Sequence record: MN445184
DNA: 64,000 bases
Source: Escherichia phage vB_EcoA_4HA11
Reading direction: 5' to 3' (one strand)
Positions 4,932 to 48,659 of the stretch are shown piece after piece. The notes beneath the pieces are model-generated. The model ran no database searches. It was not told the DNA's origin and saw only the letters and a program-made list of their open reading frames with translations. The translations under genes were made by a program, and so were the position numbers. Positions within the stretch are counted from its first letter, which is position 1, and every line of letters starts with the position of its first letter.

Positions 4932-5470
4932 ATACCAATGAATTCATTGAAAGAACCAACGACTTTCTTGACCGAGAAACGGTTATTTTCAAGAACCATT
5001 GAACTATCTTCTTTGGCTCTAACGCTCCACTGATCCGCAATTTCGTTGCCCATCGTTCCTGCATGACCTTTCACCCATTTTAATTCAAGTTCACAAATTG
5101 AACAAACTTTGTCATAATAATCGAACAACTCGAGCAGAAGTTCTGTGTTCTTAGGCGGCATTCCTTCATATTCCCATTTACGACGCCACTCCAAAACGCT
5201 ATTGATAACATATTGGCTGTCGGATATAATGCGGGCTGGGGGAATGCAGCGTTCACCACAATTAGAGAATTTCCATAGGATCTTCATTGCGTTTATAACC
5301 CCGAGTAACTCAGCTATATTGTTCGTTGACGGCGGGGGTAAATACCCATAAAACACTTTCCATTGCTCTCCAGTGATTGGACTGATGGCAAATGCCCAAC
5401 CAGCGGCTCGTGTCTTCTGAGGGGACGATGCCCCGTCAGTGTATATTTCAATCATGTATAAGTATCCCAA
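4928..5470 (-). CDS. rnhA: ribonuclease HI
   Basis: Motifs YTDGAS, NNIAEL, SDSQYV, WVKGHAG..NE.AD match bacterial RNase HI; likely ATG at 5455. Confidence 0.85.
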   Translation of the reverse strand: MGYLYMIEIYTDGASSPQKTRAAGWAFAISPITGEQWKVFYGYLPPPSTNNIAELLGVINAMKILWKFSNCGERCIPPARIISDSQYVINSVLEWRRKWEYEGMPPKNTELLLELFDYYDKVCSICELELKWVKGHAGTMGNEIADQWSVRAKEDSSMVLENNRFSVKKVVGSFNEFIGI

Positions 5471-5497
5471 ACTGGTTTTATCGATGAGGAACGAATC

Positions 5498-6265
5498 ATG
5501 TCAGAACGCGCATATCGTTTCAGTCTGACCGCCCCAGAAATTGAGCGTTTGCTCTTGTCCATAAACGACTCCATCCAAAAGCTGGACATCGTATATGACT
5601 ACACGGCGGGTGGGACTGAAGGTCAGGTCGCAGCTGCGTCAGCTGTCAAAAACATGTGGCTAAAACTTAATGAGATGGTCACAGGTGAAGGTCTTAAAGA
5701 CGCAATCAATGCAGCTAACGACAGCAACGTATTCACCGATTATTATAAGTCTATTTTAGATCGCGAAACTTGGAAATTTATTGGTTCTCCGGCAGATTTA
5801 TTAGCAAGGGACGATATAGACACTTCCAATTTTGAAGGCGGTGAAGTAATCCTCCTACAAAAGAACGCTTCGGGCAACCCAGAATTCCAATACTGGAAAA
5901 GAACTCCTGTGGCAGGAGGTGATCCAATATTTGGTTGGGAATCTGTTTATGAAGGAAACTCCAACGACTCTTCTATTGATATTCCGGTTGTTGGGACCAG
6001 CATACTGAAGACAATCCCAAAAGCATTGTTTCATATGGTCGAATTCCGAGTACACGCTCGAGAGTCTACCCTCGGTCATTGGCAGGACACTGATGGCAAA
6101 ATCGGTTATCGTGGTGAAGATCTGATTTATAGCCTGTATAATCATGTTCAAACCAAACCGATCGCAAATATATCTTTCAGCCAAGATGTGGACAATATGA
6201 TTATCACGATAACGACACTTGAACCAAATATCAAGTGCCATTTATCGTTTATTGCGGGTTATTAA
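5498..6265 (+). CDS. hypothetical protein (plus-strand gene in a minus-strand block)
   Basis: 255-aa ORF with GAGGAA SD 7 nt upstream of ATG. Confidence 0.5.
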   Translation: MSERAYRFSLTAPEIERLLLSINDSIQKLDIVYDYTAGGTEGQVAAASAVKNMWLKLNEMVTGEGLKDAINAANDSNVFTDYYKSILDRETWKFIGSPADLLARDDIDTSNFEGGEVILLQKNASGNPEFQYWKRTPVAGGDPIFGWESVYEGNSNDSSIDIPVVGTSILKTIPKALFHMVEFRVHARESTLGHWQDTDGKIGYRGEDLIYSLYNHVQTKPIANISFSQDVDNMIITITTLEPNIKCHLSFIAGY

Positions 6266-7983
6266 ACCTCAAACACTGCATCGGTGAACCAGGTTGGGAA
6301 GAATTCTGGGTTGCGCATCATAAGAGATTCAAAAGATGAATCAATGATGTATGTCGCAGCCCAGTCATCAACACCCCTGACCGAACGCCCACACATTTGA
6401 ACAATGCGCAGTACTGCATTGCGGAAATATGCCGACGGATCCACTGAATTGATATGTGCTATCAGTGGATCGCCCAGATAATCATAAGGGACTTTGATCA
6501 GTATTTGGAAACGGCTGTAATCCCCTTTGAAATCATAACCTTCTTCCATAGCCGGACTGGCAATGACGCATGGGGACTTTGTTCTAAAAGCATTTTCCAT
6601 AATATCCATCAACGCCTTTCGGGTACGCGGAACATGGATAAAATTCTGATATTTGCTGAATTTTTGTATTGCCAAGGCGCGATCATAACTCACTGTATGG
6701 ATAATGCCGGACTGACCTGGGTGGAACGCGATTATTTCATCAATATATTCCGTCAACCTTTTCATTTCATAGTCGCCCATATTGTTAGTCATCTTCACTA
6801 TGGGCATATAGTTGACTTTTCTGTTTTCAATTGGGATAGGATTGCCGATCTGAATGGAATGATAATCCCCCTGTCGAATACCCAATGAACGAGCATACGA
6901 ATCTATACCACAGATCGTTGCTGACATATGAACGTGATAATCGGCTTTTCGGAATAACCCGAATTCACTTACATCAGAAGGCATAACGGGTTTAAACCGA
7001 ATAAAGTCATCTCCCTTTTCCTGTACGATAAAGGTGCTGGCCTTTGTCTGAGACATAATACCACAATAATCACTCAAGTTATGCAAGACATCTATAATGT
7101 CTGCGAGTTTCATCACTTGGCTTTCACTCAGGCGGTCATCTTCAACCAATTCTTCAAGAACTTCCAACAAAGACTCCACTTTAAGATGGAGGTCTTCAAA
7201 CATCGAATGCATTTCACCAGACAAAGAATACAACTTGCCCAAGACATAGTCCTTGGTGCGTTCTACGATATCGGCAATGATAGAGACTATCTCCTTCCCT
7301 TCGGGGATAGTTCGCAGTCCGTCCACAGCCTTTGTATTGTATTCCATTATCGTGTGCTCTAGGAGCGTAGAGGGCATCTTATGACACTCGTCTAAGATCA
7401 GCATATCGGAACGGTTTTCAGGCTTCATACAGATGGTGGTGCACATCTCAATCATCATAGCTGCATTAGTGCAACGCAATGACGAAATATCAGTCCATAA
7501 ATTGCGCGCCTGTACATAAGGACAACGGCGTTTGCTACAATGCCCGTCGCGGCATGCTATACGGCATTGGACAGCGTTGTAATACACATCTGGGTGTACG
7601 TGGCAACGATAGTTCTTCTTGCCTTTCAGGATGTCTATCGCCACCGCCTTTTCAGCAGCATACTGATCTTGTAGACCTTTGGTAGGCGTACTGATAGACG
7701 TGCGGAATTGTCCATAAGGATCGGCCTGTAAAACCAAATGACGAATCACTTTATGAATTGTTGTCCCAATCAAAGATTTCCCCACGCCAGTTGGGGCTTC
7801 AATGATTACGTGTTTGACCTTTTTGTTGATAAGCGCATCTATGGCTTCGACGATGCATTCCATCTGGCCTGGGTTCGCTTTGTCATATGGGAATTCATCT
7901 TTGGTAAGGCGTTGTATTTCTTCCACAGGAACCTTACGGCCTATGGCGTCAATCGCCTTTCGGTGTTGATTAAATGCTGTCAC
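6262..7983 (-). CDS. DinG/Rad3-family ATP-dependent DNA helicase with Fe-S cluster cysteines
   Basis: Walker A APTGVGKS, DEAH-type box LILDECH, Cys cluster CRIACRDGHCSKRRCPY; GTG start preceded by AGGAGG. Confidence 0.7.
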   Translation of the reverse strand: MTAFNQHRKAIDAIGRKVPVEEIQRLTKDEFPYDKANPGQMECIVEAIDALINKKVKHVIIEAPTGVGKSLIGTTIHKVIRHLVLQADPYGQFRTSISTPTKGLQDQYAAEKAVAIDILKGKKNYRCHVHPDVYYNAVQCRIACRDGHCSKRRCPYVQARNLWTDISSLRCTNAAMMIEMCTTICMKPENRSDMLILDECHKMPSTLLEHTIMEYNTKAVDGLRTIPEGKEIVSIIADIVERTKDYVLGKLYSLSGEMHSMFEDLHLKVESLLEVLEELVEDDRLSESQVMKLADIIDVLHNLSDYCGIMSQTKASTFIVQEKGDDFIRFKPVMPSDVSEFGLFRKADYHVHMSATICGIDSYARSLGIRQGDYHSIQIGNPIPIENRKVNYMPIVKMTNNMGDYEMKRLTEYIDEIIAFHPGQSGIIHTVSYDRALAIQKFSKYQNFIHVPRTRKALMDIMENAFRTKSPCVIASPAMEEGYDFKGDYSRFQILIKVPYDYLGDPLIAHINSVDPSAYFRNAVLRIVQMCGRSVRGVDDWAATYIIDSSFESLMMRNPEFFPTWFTDAVFEV

Positions 7984-8480: not shown

Positions 8481-9275
8481 TTATTTGCCGACGTTCAGCA
8501 TTTTACCTGAGCCGGATCCGTCAACGATTAGAGTACATTTCCCACTGTTGGCGCAAGATTGCAACACCATGTTATATTCGTGTTGTAAATATTCAGGTGT
8601 CAGAGATGTCGTCAGTTTCTGATTCGCCTTGGCTTCTTGGTCGCGAATTTCAACGTTCTTTCTTGCTGTATCCAAACGTTTGTCGGCCATGACATTATCA
8701 CGGATAGATTGCTCAATCGAAGGATCTGTCAGCGCCTTTTTCACCAACACACGTGTGATTGTGAACATGCCAGGCGCAGCAGTTTCCAATTGCTGCTGGG
8801 TGCGTTCCTTGATCATCTTTTCTAACTCAGCCCGTTGGGTGTGAATTGTCATAGAATCCAAAGAGGAAACGGCGTCCATCGTTGAGGATGCTGCGGCGGT
8901 TTTAACCAGGTTGAATCCCACCGCTATCGTGCCGTCACCGAGTTCAGCGCTCTGACCTGCAAATTTGGTATGGAACCAAGGAACCTTCGCGACGTTCGGT
9001 GTGTAATAAACGTCCACATCCAGATCTTCCAAGGTCAGGTTGTCTTTGGCCTTTGGCGTCATTTTCGTCAGACTCACGACGGCTTCTTTAGTCGTATAGA
9101 CATCTACACTTGAAACGAAACTGGTGTAGATACCTGCGGTTACAGGGTTCATGTCCACTTCACCCCATTGGGTTCGAACACCGACGTTTCCTTCATCGAT
9201 AACACCGCCGCAGCCCGAAAGAAGGCTTGCCGCTAGGACCATAATTGCGCCAAATACCAGTTTCTTGAACATCAA
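8481..9275 (-). CDS. lipoprotein, possibly SPFH/band-7-like
   Basis: Signal peptide plus lipobox MFKKLVFGAIMVLAASLLSGC; ATG at 9272; domain assignment is tentative. Confidence 0.55.
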   Translation of the reverse strand: MMFKKLVFGAIMVLAASLLSGCGGVIDEGNVGVRTQWGEVDMNPVTAGIYTSFVSSVDVYTTKEAVVSLTKMTPKAKDNLTLEDLDVDVYYTPNVAKVPWFHTKFAGQSAELGDGTIAVGFNLVKTAAASSTMDAVSSLDSMTIHTQRAELEKMIKERTQQQLETAAPGMFTITRVLVKKALTDPSIEQSIRDNVMADKRLDTARKNVEIRDQEAKANQKLTTSLTPEYLQHEYNMVLQSCANSGKCTLIVDGSGSGKMLNVGK

Positions 9276-9490
9276 TGTACTCCTTCAAAAATGTAAATAT
9301 AAGCACCCAATGTGAGTGCAGTTATTGTAACCGAAGAAATCAGCAGTAGGAAAGTTACTCTCACCCGTTTGCGCCAACGTTTACTTCGGTAGATTTTAGT
9401 CTCTTTCAAGTATTTGAAAAAGAAAAATAAAATGAATGTTGAAATTACGAATATGAACAGATAACGGATTAACCCGATCATATTTCCCAC
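9272..9490 (-). CDS. small membrane protein
   Basis: 72-aa ORF with two hydrophobic segments; stop overlaps the start of the lipoprotein gene. Confidence 0.4.
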   Translation of the reverse strand: MGNMIGLIRYLFIFVISTFILFFFFKYLKETKIYRSKRWRKRVRVTFLLLISSVTITALTLGAYIYIFEGVH

Positions 9491-9798
9491 CCTGTGCTAC
9501 GCAGATGATCAAAATAATCGTTGAGTTCGTCAATATCTTCGATATCAACCCAACGATCATCCAGTCCCATATCATTTAGATCTTCTTCAGTCAGATCATG
9601 TTGATAAATCTGAATGCCCGAAACATTACAATAATCCGGCTTGATATTGTTGTTGAACTGGAACAAATCATAATCAGCCAGAGTATTCTTCAGGCGCTGC
9701 GCTTCTTCAAATGTTGGAACCTCAACATGAAAAGCGATCCCAGGAACCTGGGGAATATGCCAAACACGAAATTTAAGTTCAAATGGTTTATTCGACAT
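9478..9798 (-). CDS. hypothetical acidic protein
   Basis: 106-aa ORF, Asp/Glu-rich C-terminus. Confidence 0.4.
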   Translation of the reverse strand: MSNKPFELKFRVWHIPQVPGIAFHVEVPTFEEAQRLKNTLADYDLFQFNNNIKPDYCNVSGIQIYQHDLTEEDLNDMGLDDRWVDIEDIDELNDYFDHLRSTGWEI

Positions 9799-29980: not shown

Positions 29981-30478
29981 TTATTGTTTATCAATTTCGC
30001 GGGTGACGCGAGTCGGAGTCAGTTTCAAATATTTGAACGTGACAGTCGTGACCAGTTGGGGAACCGCAGCATCCACATCCACCAATACGTTGTCCAAAGC
30101 TGTGGGACGGGCTTCTTCCAACAACAATTGTAGACCAACAGGGCGATTCATGTTATCAAGAAGGTCGATGGTGATGTCACGGCTAACAGCTAAATCAGAT
30201 CCAGCATTAGACGCAATCCAATTGTAAATCTGTTCCCAGTTGTACCAACTCTCATCGATAACGAACGTAAATACGATGGGGTCATACGTGAGACGTTCTG
30301 AAGGTATGGAGTTGAGCACATCGCCAGGGGATGGTCCCTCGATACCTTCAGAATACACTCCAGGAATACTGAAGTCATGTATTGAACGAGTAAGCAATAT
30401 CAGGTCTCCGATAGTTAAGCGCCATTTATCGGAAGCCGCGAAATTAGGATTTTCGTTTTTGAATTGTACACCTGTCAT
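29981..30478 (-). CDS. hypothetical protein
   Basis: 165-aa ORF with ATG start. Confidence 0.45.
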   Translation of the reverse strand: MTGVQFKNENPNFAASDKWRLTIGDLILLTRSIHDFSIPGVYSEGIEGPSPGDVLNSIPSERLTYDPIVFTFVIDESWYNWEQIYNWIASNAGSDLAVSRDITIDLLDNMNRPVGLQLLLEEARPTALDNVLVDVDAAVPQLVTTVTFKYLKLTPTRVTREIDKQ

Positions 30479-30541
30479 GTTAGCACCTTTGCTGTGGAGA
30501 ACGTTTTAGTGTTCCTGATACGCGGATTCAGAAAATGGATC

Positions 30542-31162
30542 ATGACGATGATAATGGTGCTTGCACTCACAAGTTGCCGTATCTTTGTCACGTCCGTCAT
30601 TTCTGTAACCGACCTCTGGGATCCTGAAATCAGAACCATACCTGTTAACATCTCAGCCGACATTGATAAATGCAATAAAAATATTCTGAATCAAGTAGTA
30701 TCTGATTTTCAGAACTTCCAGACTCTTCAAGCTGTTGGTTGTTTTGATGATAACAACCAGTCACTGAGACCATACTGGAAAACCACGATTCCCCTATTGA
30801 GGAAAGGTGACGAAGGAAAGATCCCATATCTATCCGCAAGTATTTATTACTCTCAGAATAATAGCATCATAGCGACTTTCAATCCTTCTTTCTTTGACAA
30901 ACTCAGAAGGAATACTCAAGCAAGGGACGTCGAAATCACCAGAGACGTTGCAATATCATTTCAGATAGTTAATAACACCAAATCTCCGATTCGAATTGCC
31001 ACTCAGGGTGTTTTCGTTAATGGATCTGCTGTGGGTAATGAAATGAACATCTATGAAATAAGACCAGGCGGTAAAGTATGGATTCGAATGAGTGATGTTG
31101 GGGTGAACTCCCTGGTGATGGAAGGTATCGAACCAGTGGGAGTTCTCCCCGCTAGACATTGA
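30542..31162 (+). CDS. putative lipoprotein (plus strand, divergent from neighbour)
   Basis: Lipobox-like LTSC after hydrophobic MTMIMVLA; track ORF begins at TTG 30464 which would give a longer signal with RGFRKW n-region. Confidence 0.4.
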   Translation: MTMIMVLALTSCRIFVTSVISVTDLWDPEIRTIPVNISADIDKCNKNILNQVVSDFQNFQTLQAVGCFDDNNQSLRPYWKTTIPLLRKGDEGKIPYLSASIYYSQNNSIIATFNPSFFDKLRRNTQARDVEITRDVAISFQIVNNTKSPIRIATQGVFVNGSAVGNEMNIYEIRPGGKVWIRMSDVGVNSLVMEGIEPVGVLPARH

Positions 31163-31891
31163 TTATTTCAGGGACTCTTTTAATTCTGGAGTCCCTATTT
31201 TATCAATAACGCCTCCAGCACAGAGATCTTTAGCCCATTCTCCAAGAACATTCGCAAAAGAGAAGTTTAGACATTCTTTGATCATACTTTCAATATGAGC
31301 AAGTTCTGCAGCTATCCCATCGGTGATATCGTTTATAACTCCATTGACGGCGGTTATTGCCTCATTGATATGTCCTGTTACTTCAGCAGCCAATTGCTGT
31401 AGTTTTGCCATCCCTTCTGAGGCACCTTCCATAATCATGTCATACAATTCCGATATCTTGTTTGTTACGGTCTGTAGAGCACCTTCCATAGCATTCAGCC
31501 ATTGGCGTCCTAAATCCTGAACAACACCAAAAGCCTTGTTGATCAAATCACAATTGTTTGGCTCTCGTGATATACCCTTCAGACCTGATTTGTATGACAC
31601 GGAAGTACCGATGCGAGAATACGCGTCATTGATACTTTGGTCTCCATATGTGTTCAGTGTCGTTATCCCCGTGTTGGCGGCGCTATACATGGTGGTGGCT
31701 GCTGTGAGTTTTTCTGGTGTTAGTCCACCAGCAACCATAGCCGCCTGCATCTCCGGAGTCGCGTTGGCAGTTATCAATGGTATATTGGTACTACCACTGG
31801 TGATTAAATCCTGTGAGGGACCGGAGAGGGACGGAAGCGGGTTGCTAAATGCATTACCAGAGGAAAGGACATCGTAGATTTGTGCGTTCAT
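31163..31891 (-). CDS. hypothetical protein, probably structural
   Basis: 242-aa ORF, Ala/Gly/Thr-rich. Confidence 0.45.
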   Translation of the reverse strand: MNAQIYDVLSSGNAFSNPLPSLSGPSQDLITSGSTNIPLITANATPEMQAAMVAGGLTPEKLTAATTMYSAANTGITTLNTYGDQSINDAYSRIGTSVSYKSGLKGISREPNNCDLINKAFGVVQDLGRQWLNAMEGALQTVTNKISELYDMIMEGASEGMAKLQQLAAEVTGHINEAITAVNGVINDITDGIAAELAHIESMIKECLNFSFANVLGEWAKDLCAGGVIDKIGTPELKESLK

Positions 31892-47895: not shown

Positions 47896-47921
47896 TGAAT
47901 TTGTTTTTAAGGTGAATCAAT

Positions 47922-48632
47922 ATGATCGTCCTGACAGAAGGAATTGCTTCTAAAAGAATCAAATCATATGCTTCTTCTAGAGGTGGAATATTTCACGGAT
48001 TTGTCGGTGGTAAATTTGTCACCAACCAAACTAAGTGTATTTTGTCTTGCGAATTTGGTCATGAATGGAACTCAGCAACTTATGCGAATTTGATAAATAA
48101 AGGAAGTTGGTGTCCTTCGTGTCGTGGAAACAAGAAGATCTCAAATGAAGAAGCTAAAATCAGGATATCGGAGTACGCCGTAAGCAACGGTGGTAAATTC
48201 ATAAATTTCATTGGCGGGAAGTACAAAGACAACGTGACAATTTGTGTCATGGAATGTTCTGAAACACACAGGTGGGAATCCAGGTACGGTAATTTAGTCA
48301 ACAGCCGAAGTTGGTGTCCGTATTGCGCAGAATCGGGTTACAATTATTCTAAGGAAGGTTTCTTATATATTCTAGTCAACGACGAAGGTTGTATGAAAGT
48401 GGGAATAACCAACTCACCTAAGAAACGCATAAATTGTTTAAGAAGCAGCACCCCGTTTGACTTCAACGTTCTAGAAATATTCAATTCAACCGACGGATTA
48501 TTTGTTTCCAGGTTGGAAAGAATTGCCCATAGAATGTGTAAGAGCGCGGGATATAAGGATTTTGACGGTGCTACCGAATGGTTTGTATATGACGGGTCAG
48601 TCGTAGATTTTATCAGAAATATTTTGAAGTAG
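47922..48632 (+). mobile_element. T5orf172/GIY-YIG-superfamily endonuclease-like gene with two N-terminal zinc-finger repeats
   Basis: Two repeats of C..C..H.W...WCP.C; C-terminal GFLYILVNDEGCMKVGIT...ATEWF; plus strand inside minus-strand structural block; AAGGTG SD. Confidence 0.55.
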
Positions 48633-48659
48633 CCATGACTTTACCCTCAATTTTGAAGG

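What the first reader, a model, noticed from the sequence alone, without database searches (positions are those of the whole stretch)
30464..31162. Plus-strand putative lipoprotein gene divergent from its minus-strand neighbour
The ORF contains MTMIMVLALTSC, a hydrophobic stretch ending in a lipobox-like LTSC; read from the upstream TTG it gains a positively charged n-region (RGFRKW). It is one of only five plus-strand genes in the window. Small phage lipoproteins are known to block the phage's own receptor (for example T5 Llp), which would be relevant to a phage carrying four tailspikes.
Basis: inference. Interest (0 to 1): 0.45.

Follow-up and report, generated by a model that had tools for sequence, protein, structure and literature searches.

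The report
Conserved phage lipoprotein gene (DUF7424)
This is a real phage gene for a secreted, lipid-anchored envelope protein, already catalogued as DUF7424 and as "putative lipoprotein"; its function is untested, but relatives sit in prophage repressor operons, so blocking re-infection at the cell envelope is the best guess.

Summary
The window is a Kuttervirus (Ackermannviridae) that is 100% identical to Salmonella phage S117 across this locus. The plus-strand ORF is a genuine gene in Pfam family DUF7424 (E 1.4e-60).

**Start and signal.** It is a GTG at 30509, preceded by GGAG, and both are conserved across five genera. From that start the product is MFLIRGFRKWIMTMIMVLALTS|C, a rule-compliant lipoprotein signal. 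The lipobox is present in 204 of 212 full-length family members, down to about 15% identity. Two further cysteines are invariant wherever they were checked.

**Fold.** The mature 195-residue domain models confidently (pLDDT 89.5). It has no solved or viral structural relative outside its own family.

**Gene organisation.** The gene is a single-gene unit with its own terminator hairpin. It is syntenic in 348 phage records.

**Relatives.** Distant relatives occur in bacterial chromosomes. In three independent cases they lie directly downstream of a prophage repressor.

**Verdict.** The lipoprotein call is supported, and it is already annotated as such in sister phages. The comparison with T5 Llp holds only as a functional analogy. 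The link to tailspike receptors is not supported, because the protein is conserved across phages with unrelated tailspikes.

The parts
30509..31162 (+). Coding sequence of the DUF7424 lipoprotein precursor (217 aa, GTG start, TGA stop at 31160-31162)
   Evidence: Pfam PF24199 scores 204.8 bits against a cut-off of 27. The most populous homologue cluster, P0001 (67 members, 217 aa), starts at this codon. The GTG is conserved in 18 of 18 checked loci from enterobacterial Ackermannviridae. In two further loci (L043, L044) my start offset was wrong, and one search shows the same GGAG-spacer-GTG there. In-frame stops lie just upstream in other genera.
30496..30499 (+). Shine-Dalgarno GGAG, 9 nt before the GTG
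   Evidence: Read directly from the sequence. The motif TGGAGA with a 7-9 nt spacer is conserved in all enterobacterial relatives.
30509..30574 (+). Signal peptide of 22 aa, MFLIRGFRKWIMTMIMVLALTS. It has an n-region with R5/R8/K9 and a hydrophobic core. The lipobox L-T-S-C occupies 30566-30577.
   Evidence: The PS51257-type rule is met only from this start. The pattern is conserved in close and distant homologues.
30575..30577 (+). Cys23 codon (TGC). This is the predicted lipid-modified N-terminal residue of the mature protein. It is followed by Arg at +2.
   Evidence: Cys23 is invariant in alignment A3 (33 sequences, 15-57% identity). The +2 residue is K or R in 177 of 204 members and D in 15.
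30575..31159 (+). Mature domain, 195 aa, mixed beta/alpha. Conserved motifs are NDT/NNT, VFVN and LSDV. Cys55 (30671-30673) and Cys78 (30740-30742) are invariant.
31170..31203 (+). Terminator-like hairpin for the plus-strand transcript: a 9-bp stem and 9-nt loop followed by AUUUUAU. It lies inside the 3' end of the convergent minus-strand gene.
   Evidence: Predicted energy is -18.3 kcal/mol with z -4.5, and 0 of 200 shuffles fold as well. The same hairpin occurs in Kuttervirus Sa157lw. Canonical GC-stem plus T-run terminators follow the gene in Miltonvirus 3M and Vibrio phages K476 and D506.
30479..30508 (.). Divergent spacer of 30 nt between the start codons of the gp3-like gene (ATG at 30478-30476 on the minus strand) and the lipoprotein gene. 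It carries both ribosome-binding sites back to back (AAGGTG for the minus gene, GGAG for the plus gene).
   Evidence: Read directly from the sequence. The spacer is 26-32 nt in all enterobacterial relatives.
30267..30274 (+). GTAAATAC motif, 241 nt upstream of the GTG, inside the gp3-like gene at codons V69-F70-T71. It is a candidate, unproven, promoter element for the plus-strand gene.
   Evidence: Codons V69 (GTA), F70 (TTT) and F72 (TTC) are invariant at synonymous sites in 18 sequences from five or more genera. By contrast, 78 of the 83 columns with an invariant degenerate amino acid vary. The motif resembles the phage's intergenic (A)CTAAATA / TATAAATA late-promoter motif but has G where C or A is usual. 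Vibrio relatives carry CTCCTAAATA about 40 nt upstream of the ATG.
29981..30478 (-). Neighbouring gene: gp3-like tail completion / sheath stabiliser, divergent from the lipoprotein gene.
   Evidence: Annotation in S117, kage, SFP10 and LIMEstone1, where it is a confirmed structural protein. It also hits phrog_45.
31163..31891 (-). Neighbouring gene: DUF7217 structural protein, convergent, with its stop codon abutting the lipoprotein stop.
   Evidence: Pfam DUF7217 E 1.9e-101. It is a confirmed structural protein in LIMEstone1.

Best explanation
**What the gene makes (shown or strongly inferred from sequence)**
- The gene encodes a 217-aa lipoprotein precursor, translated from a conserved GTG at 30509.
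- By the established bacterial lipoprotein pathway (Sec export, Lgt, signal peptidase II, Lnt), the precursor would be cut before Cys23 and lipid-modified there.
- The +2 residue is Arg, not Asp. [quoted passage not shown]
- That places a 195-residue beta-rich domain in the periplasm. The domain probably holds a Cys55-Cys78 disulfide.
- The gene is a self-contained, single-gene transcription unit. It is inverted relative to its structural and replication neighbours and is conserved in that arrangement in all Ackermannviridae-like phages.

**What it most likely does (inferred, not shown)**
- It is most likely an envelope-level 'lytic conversion' or superinfection-exclusion factor.
- From the periplasmic side it would bind a conserved component of the entry route. 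Candidates are a conserved outer-membrane or periplasmic host protein, or the incoming phage's own conserved tail tip.
- Later-arriving particles, or progeny meeting cell debris, would then fail to inject productively.
- The target is not the variable O-antigen or capsule receptors read by the tailspikes.
For: **Gene, start and signal**
- Pfam DUF7424 hit.
- Conserved GTG plus GGAG, with upstream in-frame stops in other genera.
- The PS51257-type rule is met only from 30509, and only four ORFs in the whole six-frame scan pass it.
- A lipobox is present in 204 of 212 full-length family members.
- SignalP-based 'putative signal peptide' annotation in LIMEstone1, and 'putative lipoprotein' in kage, STP55 and LPST94.

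**Extracytoplasmic location**
- Two further cysteines are invariant from 99% down to 15% identity.
- The product is absent from the 'confirmed structural protein' labels in LIMEstone1, although both neighbours carry them.

**Own transcription unit**
- Terminator hairpin with z -4.5. Canonical terminators follow the gene in Miltonvirus and Vibrio relatives.

**Core gene with a conserved target**
- 348 phage records carry it, across Salmonella, Vibrio, Klebsiella, Escherichia, Dickeya, Serratia, Shigella, Erwinia, Enterobacter and Aeromonas phages.
- Synteny is the same in every locus examined.
- It diverges at the rate of the neighbouring structural gene DUF7217.

**Exclusion-type role: three independent prophage contexts**
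- Paracandidimonas prophage: the gene directly follows a 129-aa protein with only a weak HTH match, a putative repressor that lies divergent from a Cro/YdaS-like gene.
- A Pseudomonadota genome: it lies between an S24-peptidase fragment and a protein with a sub-threshold SieB match, E 1.7e-4.
- Haemophilus P2-like prophages: it lies in the cI (HTH_3 + Peptidase_S24) operon, 13 nt after cI or overlapping the preceding gene by 4 nt.
Against: - No experiment bears on function.
- There is no sequence or fold similarity to any known exclusion protein.
- Several family members sit in ordinary bacterial chromosomal contexts, for example next to TctABC, peptidase M3 or BON/LysM genes. The family is therefore not exclusively a mobile-element function.
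- No sigma-70-like promoter lies upstream. The only promoter-like motifs resemble late promoters. Late expression would fit protecting progeny from debris better than early exclusion.
- The gene is not next to receptor-binding genes, unlike llp and cor.
- The phage already carries a GP17-family 'superinfection exclusion' gene and a second lipoprotein.
Confidence: 0.4

Rival explanations
1. It is an envelope lipoprotein with a phage-intrinsic job unrelated to exclusion. Examples are control or assistance of lysis and egress, envelope stabilisation during the long late phase, or handling of periplasmic polysaccharide fragments. It would be expressed late, together with the structural genes around it.
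For: It is a core gene with fixed synteny next to late structural genes in every relative. The only promoter-like motifs upstream are of the late type: CTCCTAAATA about 40 nt upstream in Vibrio phages, and the synonymously constrained GTAAATAC in enterobacterial phages. It diverges like a structural gene.
Against: It is not a spanin. The mature protein is 195 aa, there is no partner i-spanin nearby, and spanins are annotated elsewhere in Vi01-like genomes (PMC10892097 gene table). No lysis gene is adjacent. The prophage homologues lie in repressor operons, which are expressed in the lysogen and not at lysis.
Confidence: 0.3
2. It is a captured bacterial periplasmic lipoprotein whose biochemical role (binding a small ligand, metal or envelope polymer) is the same in bacteria and phages. 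It would be carried as an accessory fitness gene rather than as an anti-phage device.
For: DUF7424 proteins are encoded in Photorhabdus, Alcaligenaceae, Pasteurellaceae and other chromosomes. Some lie among housekeeping genes. The whole family shares the same three cysteines and the NDT / VFVN / LSDV motifs, which suggests one conserved biochemical activity.
Against: The distribution across Proteobacteria is patchy, and the repeated placement in prophages and islands points to a mobile accessory gene. No ligand-binding family or fold match was found.
Confidence: 0.2
3. It is a virion or assembly protein, as its position between two structural genes might suggest.
For: The flanking genes, gp3-like and DUF7217, are confirmed virion proteins in LIMEstone1.
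Against: It is on the opposite strand with its own terminator. A cleavable lipoprotein signal sends it out of the cytoplasm, where tails and heads assemble. It is not flagged as structural in LIMEstone1 although both neighbours are.
Confidence: 0.05
4. The lipobox is fortuitous. Translation starts at ATG 30542 or 30548, as annotated in SFP10 and kage, and the product is cytoplasmic or membrane-tethered without lipidation.
For: GenBank records use ATG 30542 (SFP10), ATG 30548 (kage) and a CTG at 30515 (S117).
Against: The n-region, the GTG and the GGAG are conserved across genera. Vibrio phage D506 has an unambiguous ATG at the equivalent position, with a stop 6 nt upstream. The lipobox Cys is essentially invariant in 200+ proteins.
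Confidence: 0.03

Closest known systems
Pfam DUF7424 (PF24199) / PHROG 3832, an uncharacterised family annotated 'putative lipoprotein' or 'membrane lipoprotein' in several phage records
   Same: It is a full-length member. Pfam scores 204.8 bits against a cut-off of 27, and phrog_3832 gives E 4.3e-113. Sister phages kage, STP55, LPST94, heyday, barely and pertopsoe already call it a putative lipoprotein.
   Different: Nothing differs; this is the family it belongs to. The family has no assigned function, and no paper in the searchable library mentions it.
T5 Llp, the lytic-conversion lipoprotein that blocks FhuA from the periplasmic face (PMC9586334)
   Same: Both are made by a virulent phage. 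Both are lipoproteins predicted to face the periplasm from the outer membrane. Both contain a conserved cysteine pair; Llp has a Cys11-Cys58 disulfide.
   Different: There is no sequence similarity and no fold similarity. The mature protein is 195 aa, against a small Llp. The gene lies about 24 kb from the tailspike cluster, whereas llp lies just downstream of the receptor-binding gene pb5. Llp is expressed early, while here only late-type motifs are seen. This protein is conserved across phages with different receptors, whereas Llp- and Cor-type proteins track the receptor.
Cor lipoproteins of T1, phi80 and N15
   Same: Both are phage-encoded outer-membrane lipoproteins. Like the distant DUF7424 members found in cI operons, Cor proteins can be expressed from prophages.
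   Different: No Pfam or PHROG relationship was found. The size and fold class are different, and the gene is not in the tail-fibre locus.
Outer-membrane spanin subunits (Rz1-type)
   Same: Both are phage lipoproteins sorted to the outer membrane.
   Different: The mature protein is a 195-aa globular domain, not a short proline-rich peptide. There is no adjacent or embedding i-spanin gene. Vi01-like genomes annotate spanins elsewhere.
Prophage repressor-operon exclusion genes (lambda rexAB and P22 sieA/sieB type arrangement)
   Same: Distant DUF7424 genes sit immediately downstream of cI-like repressors. In one case the gene lies next to a weak SieB-like protein.
   Different: This similarity is one of genomic context only. 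In this virulent phage there is no repressor. None of those exclusion proteins is a lipoprotein of this fold.

Membership tests
Bacterial lipoprotein precursors (signal peptidase II substrates; PROSITE PS51257 rule) | Lipobox [LVI][ASTVI][GAS]C preceded by an uncharged hydrophobic stretch | tested here: met
   The sequence is TMIMVL-AL-T-S-C, and the pattern matches. A lipobox is present in 204 of 212 family members.
Bacterial lipoprotein precursors (signal peptidase II substrates; PROSITE PS51257 rule) | Cys between positions 15 and 35, and at least one K/R in the first seven residues | tested here: met
   This is met only from GTG 30509 (Cys23, Arg5). It is not met from TTG 30464 (Cys38) or ATG 30542 (Cys12, no K/R). 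The GTG start is supported by conservation.
Bacterial lipoprotein precursors (signal peptidase II substrates; PROSITE PS51257 rule) | Actual diacylglyceryl modification and globomycin-sensitive cleavage | not testable with these tools
   This needs labelling and processing experiments.
Pfam DUF7424 (PF24199) | Whole-protein HMM score above the gathering threshold, covering the full domain | tested here: met
   The score is 204.8 bits against 27. Profile positions 2-195 of 196 are covered.
T5 Llp / Cor-type receptor-blocking lipoproteins | Sequence or fold homology to Llp or Cor | tested here: not met
T5 Llp / Cor-type receptor-blocking lipoproteins | Gene adjacent to the receptor-binding protein gene | tested here: not met
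   The neighbours are the gp3-like tail completion gene and the DUF7217 gene. The tailspike cluster begins about 24 kb away.
T5 Llp / Cor-type receptor-blocking lipoproteins | Early expression during infection | tested here: inconclusive
   There is no sigma-70-like site upstream on the plus strand. Only late-type motifs were found. No transcriptome data were found.
T5 Llp / Cor-type receptor-blocking lipoproteins | Binds and inactivates the phage's own receptor | not testable with these tools
   This needs adsorption, EOP and pull-down assays.
Outer-membrane spanin (Rz1-type) | Short lipoprotein encoded within, overlapping or next to an i-spanin gene in a lysis cassette | tested here: not met
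   The mature protein is 195 aa and globular. The flanking genes are structural or recombination genes.
Known anti-phage defence system proteins (PADLOC-DB) | Match to any defence-system HMM | tested here: not met
   There were no hits at E up to 1 for the window protein or for two distant relatives.

The most novel reading that the evidence does not exclude
DUF7424 is a previously unrecognised and structurally unprecedented family of periplasm-facing lipoproteins. Both virulent Ackermannviridae (as a core gene) and temperate phages (from the repressor operon) would use it to exclude superinfecting phages. It would do so by jamming a conserved step of envelope penetration, rather than a specific surface receptor.
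Probability: 0.3. Interest if true: 0.6.

Novelty: new variant of a known kind. Interest (0 to 1): 0.35.

Why it matters
Ackermannviridae (Vi01, CBA120 and Kuttervirus phages) are widely used for biocontrol and therapy. Their entry steps after tailspike binding, and any exclusion mechanisms, are essentially unknown.

This lipoprotein is core to the family and sent to the envelope. It has relatives in prophage repressor operons. That makes it a concrete and cheap handle:
- Expressing it in the host would show directly whether it blocks infection.
- Finding its partner could reveal the conserved secondary receptor or penetration step.

If it has no exclusion activity, it is simply one more catalogued phage lipoprotein of unknown function.

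In practical terms, the gene start is mis-annotated in many GenBank records, which hides the signal peptide.

Tried and rejected
- **Virion proteomics of Vi01-like phage Sajous1 (PMC10892097).** The paper's gp214-217 'tail completion operon' looked as if gp215 might be this gene. The GenBank numbering of MW021757 does not correspond: Sajous1_214 is a 795-aa protein and all four genes are on one strand. I could not map the data, so I dropped this line.
- **The search for related loci on bacterial genomes.** Alignments A3 and A4 have no stretch conserved enough to search with.
- **AFDB Foldseek library.** It was not available.
- **IMG/VR scan.** It returned only the same isolate lineages and no new diversity.
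- **Literature searches.** Searches for DUF7424 and for Ackermannviridae or Kuttervirus transcriptomes found nothing usable.
- **Sigma-70 promoter.** The scan found none on the plus strand upstream. My manual TTGAAT-N16-TAGCAC candidate scores only 8 of 12 and lies in sequence constrained by the gp3 N-terminus, so I rejected it as evidence.
- **Gene coordinates transferred from S117.** I initially assumed the window equals S117 throughout. It does not; there are offsets and a 765-bp insertion. I therefore redid the promoter-motif survey on the window's own ORFs.
- **Disulfide geometry.** It could not be checked, because model coordinates are not exposed.
Full report
**What the window is.** The 2-kb stretch around the finding is 100% identical to Salmonella phage S117 (MH370370; Kuttervirus, Ackermannviridae). 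It is 99% or more identical to dozens of sister phages. Outside roughly 17-37 kb the window differs from S117 by SNPs, by small offsets and by one 765-bp insertion. It is therefore a very close relative rather than S117 itself. In S117 the finding corresponds to orf134, 'hypothetical protein'. In kage, STP55, LPST94, heyday, barely and pertopsoe the same gene is already called 'putative lipoprotein'.

**Is it a gene?** Yes. The ORF matches Pfam DUF7424 (PF24199) over the whole domain, with E 1.4e-60 and 204.8 bits against a cut-off of 27. It also matches PHROG 3832, function unknown. tblastn finds it in 348 phage records. These come from Salmonella, Vibrio, Klebsiella, Escherichia, Dickeya, Serratia, Shigella, Erwinia, Enterobacter and Aeromonas phages, at 99% down to about 21% identity.

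**Where does it start?**
- The maximal ORF begins at TTG 30464, which overlaps the divergent neighbour's start codon by 15 nt.
- GenBank records use three other starts: CTG 30515 in S117, ATG 30542 in SFP10 and ATG 30548 in kage.
- None of these is conserved. What is conserved is a GTG at 30509, preceded by GGAG at 30496-30499. Both occur at the same position in Kuttervirus, Taipeivirus, Limestonevirus, an unclassified Aglimvirinae phage and Miltonvirus.
- In Serratia phages IME250 and 3M an in-frame stop lies 27 and 57 nt upstream, with no other start codon in between. In Vibrio phage D506 the equivalent codon is an ATG with a stop 6 nt upstream.
- The largest homologue cluster (P0001, 67 members, 217 aa) also starts there.
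- The CDS is therefore 30509-31162.

**Is it a lipoprotein?**
- Read from 30509 the N-terminus is MFLIRGFRKWIMTMIMVLALTS|CRIF. It has positive charges at positions 5, 8 and 9, a 12-residue uncharged core, the lipobox L-T-S-C and Cys at position 23.
- I applied a PROSITE PS51257-type rule to every possible start of every ORF with at least 50 aa remaining, in all six frames. Only four ORFs pass: this gene (from 30509 only), two short antisense or spurious ORFs, and a second real lipoprotein at 8481-9272.
- The signal is conserved well beyond what sequence identity would carry. Miltonvirus has MSPTKFIGVLIVLASLLIGG|C. Vibrio phage D506 has MRFRLWKVAMLLLFCVLISS|C.
- An exhaustive profile search of 1.84 billion representative proteins found 85 clusters, nearly all about 200-230 aa and beginning MKK...L(A/T/S)GC.
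- Across 212 full-length members, 192 meet the strict core pattern and 204 meet a relaxed one. Most of the eight exceptions are mis-called starts.
- The residue after the Cys is K or R in 177 members and D in 15. By the enterobacterial +2 rule (established knowledge), Arg at +2 predicts Lol-dependent sorting to the outer membrane.

**The mature domain.**
- Only three residues are invariant in a 33-sequence alignment spanning 15-57% identity: the lipobox Cys and two further cysteines, Cys55 and Cys78 of the precursor.
- A conserved cysteine pair in an exported protein most simply means a disulfide. This is an inference, because I could not read coordinates from the model.
- With a 128-sequence alignment AlphaFold2 gives a confident model of the mature domain (pLDDT 89.5, pTM 0.86). 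It has mixed beta strands and four helices.
- Foldseek against predicted viral structures returns only other DUF7424 proteins.
- A profile search of all PDB sequences, NCBIfam and PADLOC give nothing.
- The fold therefore has no characterised relative.

**Gene organisation.**
- The gene is divergent from the gp3-like tail completion gene, across a 30-nt spacer. That spacer consists essentially of the two ribosome-binding sites back to back.
- It is convergent with the DUF7217 structural gene, and the two stop codons abut.
- Just past the stop, inside the 3' end of the convergent gene, is a 9-bp hairpin followed by AUUUUAU. Its energy is -18.3 kcal/mol with z -4.5, and none of 200 shuffles folds as well.
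- Miltonvirus 3M and Vibrio phages K476 and D506 have textbook GC-stem plus T-run terminators at the same place.
- The gene therefore looks monocistronic.

**The promoter was not found with confidence.**
- There is no sigma-70-like site on the plus strand upstream.
- The phage's late-type motif, (A)CTAAATA or TATAAATA, lies 10-35 nt upstream of eight minus-strand genes in intergenic DNA. Two more intergenic copies lie farther from a called start, and two further copies at 11 and 24 nt lie inside the preceding gene. It is absent from the 120 nt before this gene.
- A plus-strand GTAAATAC lies 241 nt upstream, inside the gp3-like gene. There the synonymous positions of V69 (GTA), F70 (TTT) and F72 (TTC) are invariant in 18 sequences from at least five genera. 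By contrast, 78 of the 83 columns with an invariant degenerate amino acid vary.
- In the Vibrio relatives a canonical CTCCTAAATA lies about 40 nt upstream of the ATG, in the spacer.
- I treat this as a candidate late promoter. It is not shown.

**Evolutionary behaviour.**
- The arrangement helicase - exonuclease - UvsY - gp3-like (all minus strand), then the lipoprotein (plus strand), is kept in every locus examined. That includes Vibrio phages at 21-24% identity and a metagenomic phage.
- Against the window, the lipoprotein is 69% identical in Klebsiella phage, 63% in Dickeya phage, 60% in E. coli phage PH4, 35% in Miltonvirus and 21% in Vibrio phage.
- That tracks the neighbouring DUF7217 structural protein (68, 63, 60 and 48%). 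It is somewhat faster than gp3 and UvsY.
- The gene thus behaves as a core gene, not as a host-specific accessory that co-varies with the tailspikes.

**Relatives outside these phages.** The distant members are named only 'DUF7424 family protein'. They occur patchily in Photorhabdus, Alcaligenaceae, Pasteurellaceae, Comamonas and others. Contexts are mixed.
- Some lie among ordinary chromosomal genes, such as TctABC, peptidase M3 and BON/LysM.
- One is in an integrase, HTH, ankyrin and resolvase island.
- One lies near a Mu-like prophage end.
- Three independent cases lie directly behind a prophage repressor:
  - In a Paracandidimonas prophage the gene follows a small protein with only a weak HTH match, a putative repressor, that is divergent from a Cro/YdaS-like gene.
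  - In a Pseudomonadota genome it lies between a Peptidase_S24 fragment and a protein with a sub-threshold SieB match, E 1.7e-4.
  - In Haemophilus P2-like prophages it lies in the cI (HTH_3 + Peptidase_S24) operon. It sits 13 nt after cI, or overlaps an interposed BRCT/WYL gene by 4 nt, and is followed by an overlapping Excalibur-domain gene.
- Genes co-transcribed with the repressor are expressed in the lysogen. By established knowledge of lambda rexAB and the P22 sie genes, this is the classic place for exclusion or conversion functions.

**Most likely mechanism.**
- Shown or strongly inferred: the gene makes an exported, lipid-anchored, disulfide-containing protein. [quoted passage not shown] It comes from its own small transcription unit. 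It is not a virion component: LIMEstone1's two flanking genes are 'confirmed structural' and this one is not.
- Inferred from context only: it acts as an envelope-level exclusion or lytic-conversion factor.
- Because it is conserved across phages with unrelated tailspikes, its target should be conserved. Candidates are a conserved envelope protein used after glycan binding, or the incoming tail tip. The O-antigen or capsule receptors are not candidates.
- I give the lipoprotein claim about 0.9 and the exclusion claim about 0.4.
- The main rival (0.3) is a late, phage-intrinsic envelope function unrelated to exclusion. A generic captured bacterial lipoprotein function gets 0.2. Virion-protein and no-signal readings are unlikely.

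**Comparison with known systems.**
- It is a member of DUF7424.
- It may work like T5 Llp or Cor. [quoted passage not shown]
- It is not a member of those families. Homology was tested and not met. Adjacency to the receptor-binding gene was tested and not met. Early expression is inconclusive.
- It is not a spanin.

**Novelty.** The observation itself is already in the databases, as the 'putative lipoprotein' annotation and the Pfam DUF entry. Four points are not, as far as the searchable literature shows:
- the conserved GTG start, which many records miss;
- the family-wide lipobox and cysteine pair;
- the orphan fold;
- the recurrent placement of distant members in prophage repressor operons.

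This makes a reasonable, testable lead rather than a surprise.

Noticed in passing
window 8481-9272 (-) and 9478-9798 (-): A second rule-compliant lipoprotein, MFKKLVFGAIMVLAASLLSG|C, 263 aa, with an SPFH/Band 7 domain (E 1.2e-12). Two genes away lies a Pfam GP17 'superinfection exclusion gene product 17' homologue (E 1.2e-49). The phage therefore encodes at least two lipoproteins and one annotated exclusion-family gene.
   Followed up: partly
window ~47900-48650 (ORF 47922-48632, +): The window carries a 765-bp insertion relative to S117. The insertion holds a plus-strand ORF with CapR-homology and T5orf172/MUG113 (GIY-YIG-like) domains, probably a mobile nuclease gene. The window also differs from S117 by many SNPs and by small offsets outside about 17-37 kb.
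   Followed up: partly
window 30509-30548; GenBank MH370370, NC_016073, MT074476: Near-identical genomes annotate three different starts for this gene: CTG 30515, ATG 30542 and ATG 30548. All three truncate or remove the signal peptide, and none is the conserved GTG 30509.
   Followed up: yes
window 30264-30275 (gp3-like gene codons 69-72): There is a cluster of synonymously invariant codons (GTA TTT ACN TTC on the minus strand, which reads GAANGTAAATAC on the plus strand) in 18 sequences from five or more genera. Only five of 83 comparable columns are invariant, and three of those are here. This implies a DNA or RNA element embedded in the tail completion gene.
   Followed up: partly
window, eight intergenic sites on the minus strand 10-35 nt from a start (e.g. 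31920, 37644, 43643, 47894, 55181, 60407, 62617): The T4-like late-promoter motif of this phage is (A)CTAAATA(C/T) or TATAAATA, 10-35 nt upstream of late gene starts. A GTAAATAC variant on the plus strand lies 154 nt upstream of another plus-strand gene (5498-6265) as well as 241 nt upstream of the lipoprotein gene.
   Followed up: partly
L054-L057 (Haemophilus P2-like prophages), 5435-7902: The operon order is cI repressor, then an optional BRCT/WYL gene, then DUF7424 lipoprotein, then a 74-aa Excalibur-domain protein. The genes have overlapping starts and are divergent from a Cro/YdaS-like gene. The operon lies between the replication genes and the tail genes.
   Followed up: partly
L016/L017 (metagenomic island), 5294-7241: A DUF7424 lipoprotein is flanked by an ankyrin-repeat protein and a 209-aa unknown protein. 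They lie in an island with an integrase, an HTH regulator, a resolvase and a bundlin/PilS-like pilin gene.
   Followed up: no
PMC10892097 versus GenBank MW021757: The gene-product numbers used in the Sajous1 virion proteomics paper (gp214 'tail completion protein' and so on) do not match the locus tags of the deposited genome. In the deposited genome Sajous1_214 is a 795-aa hypothetical protein. The published 'ferrojan horse operon' therefore cannot be mapped without the supplement.
   Followed up: partly
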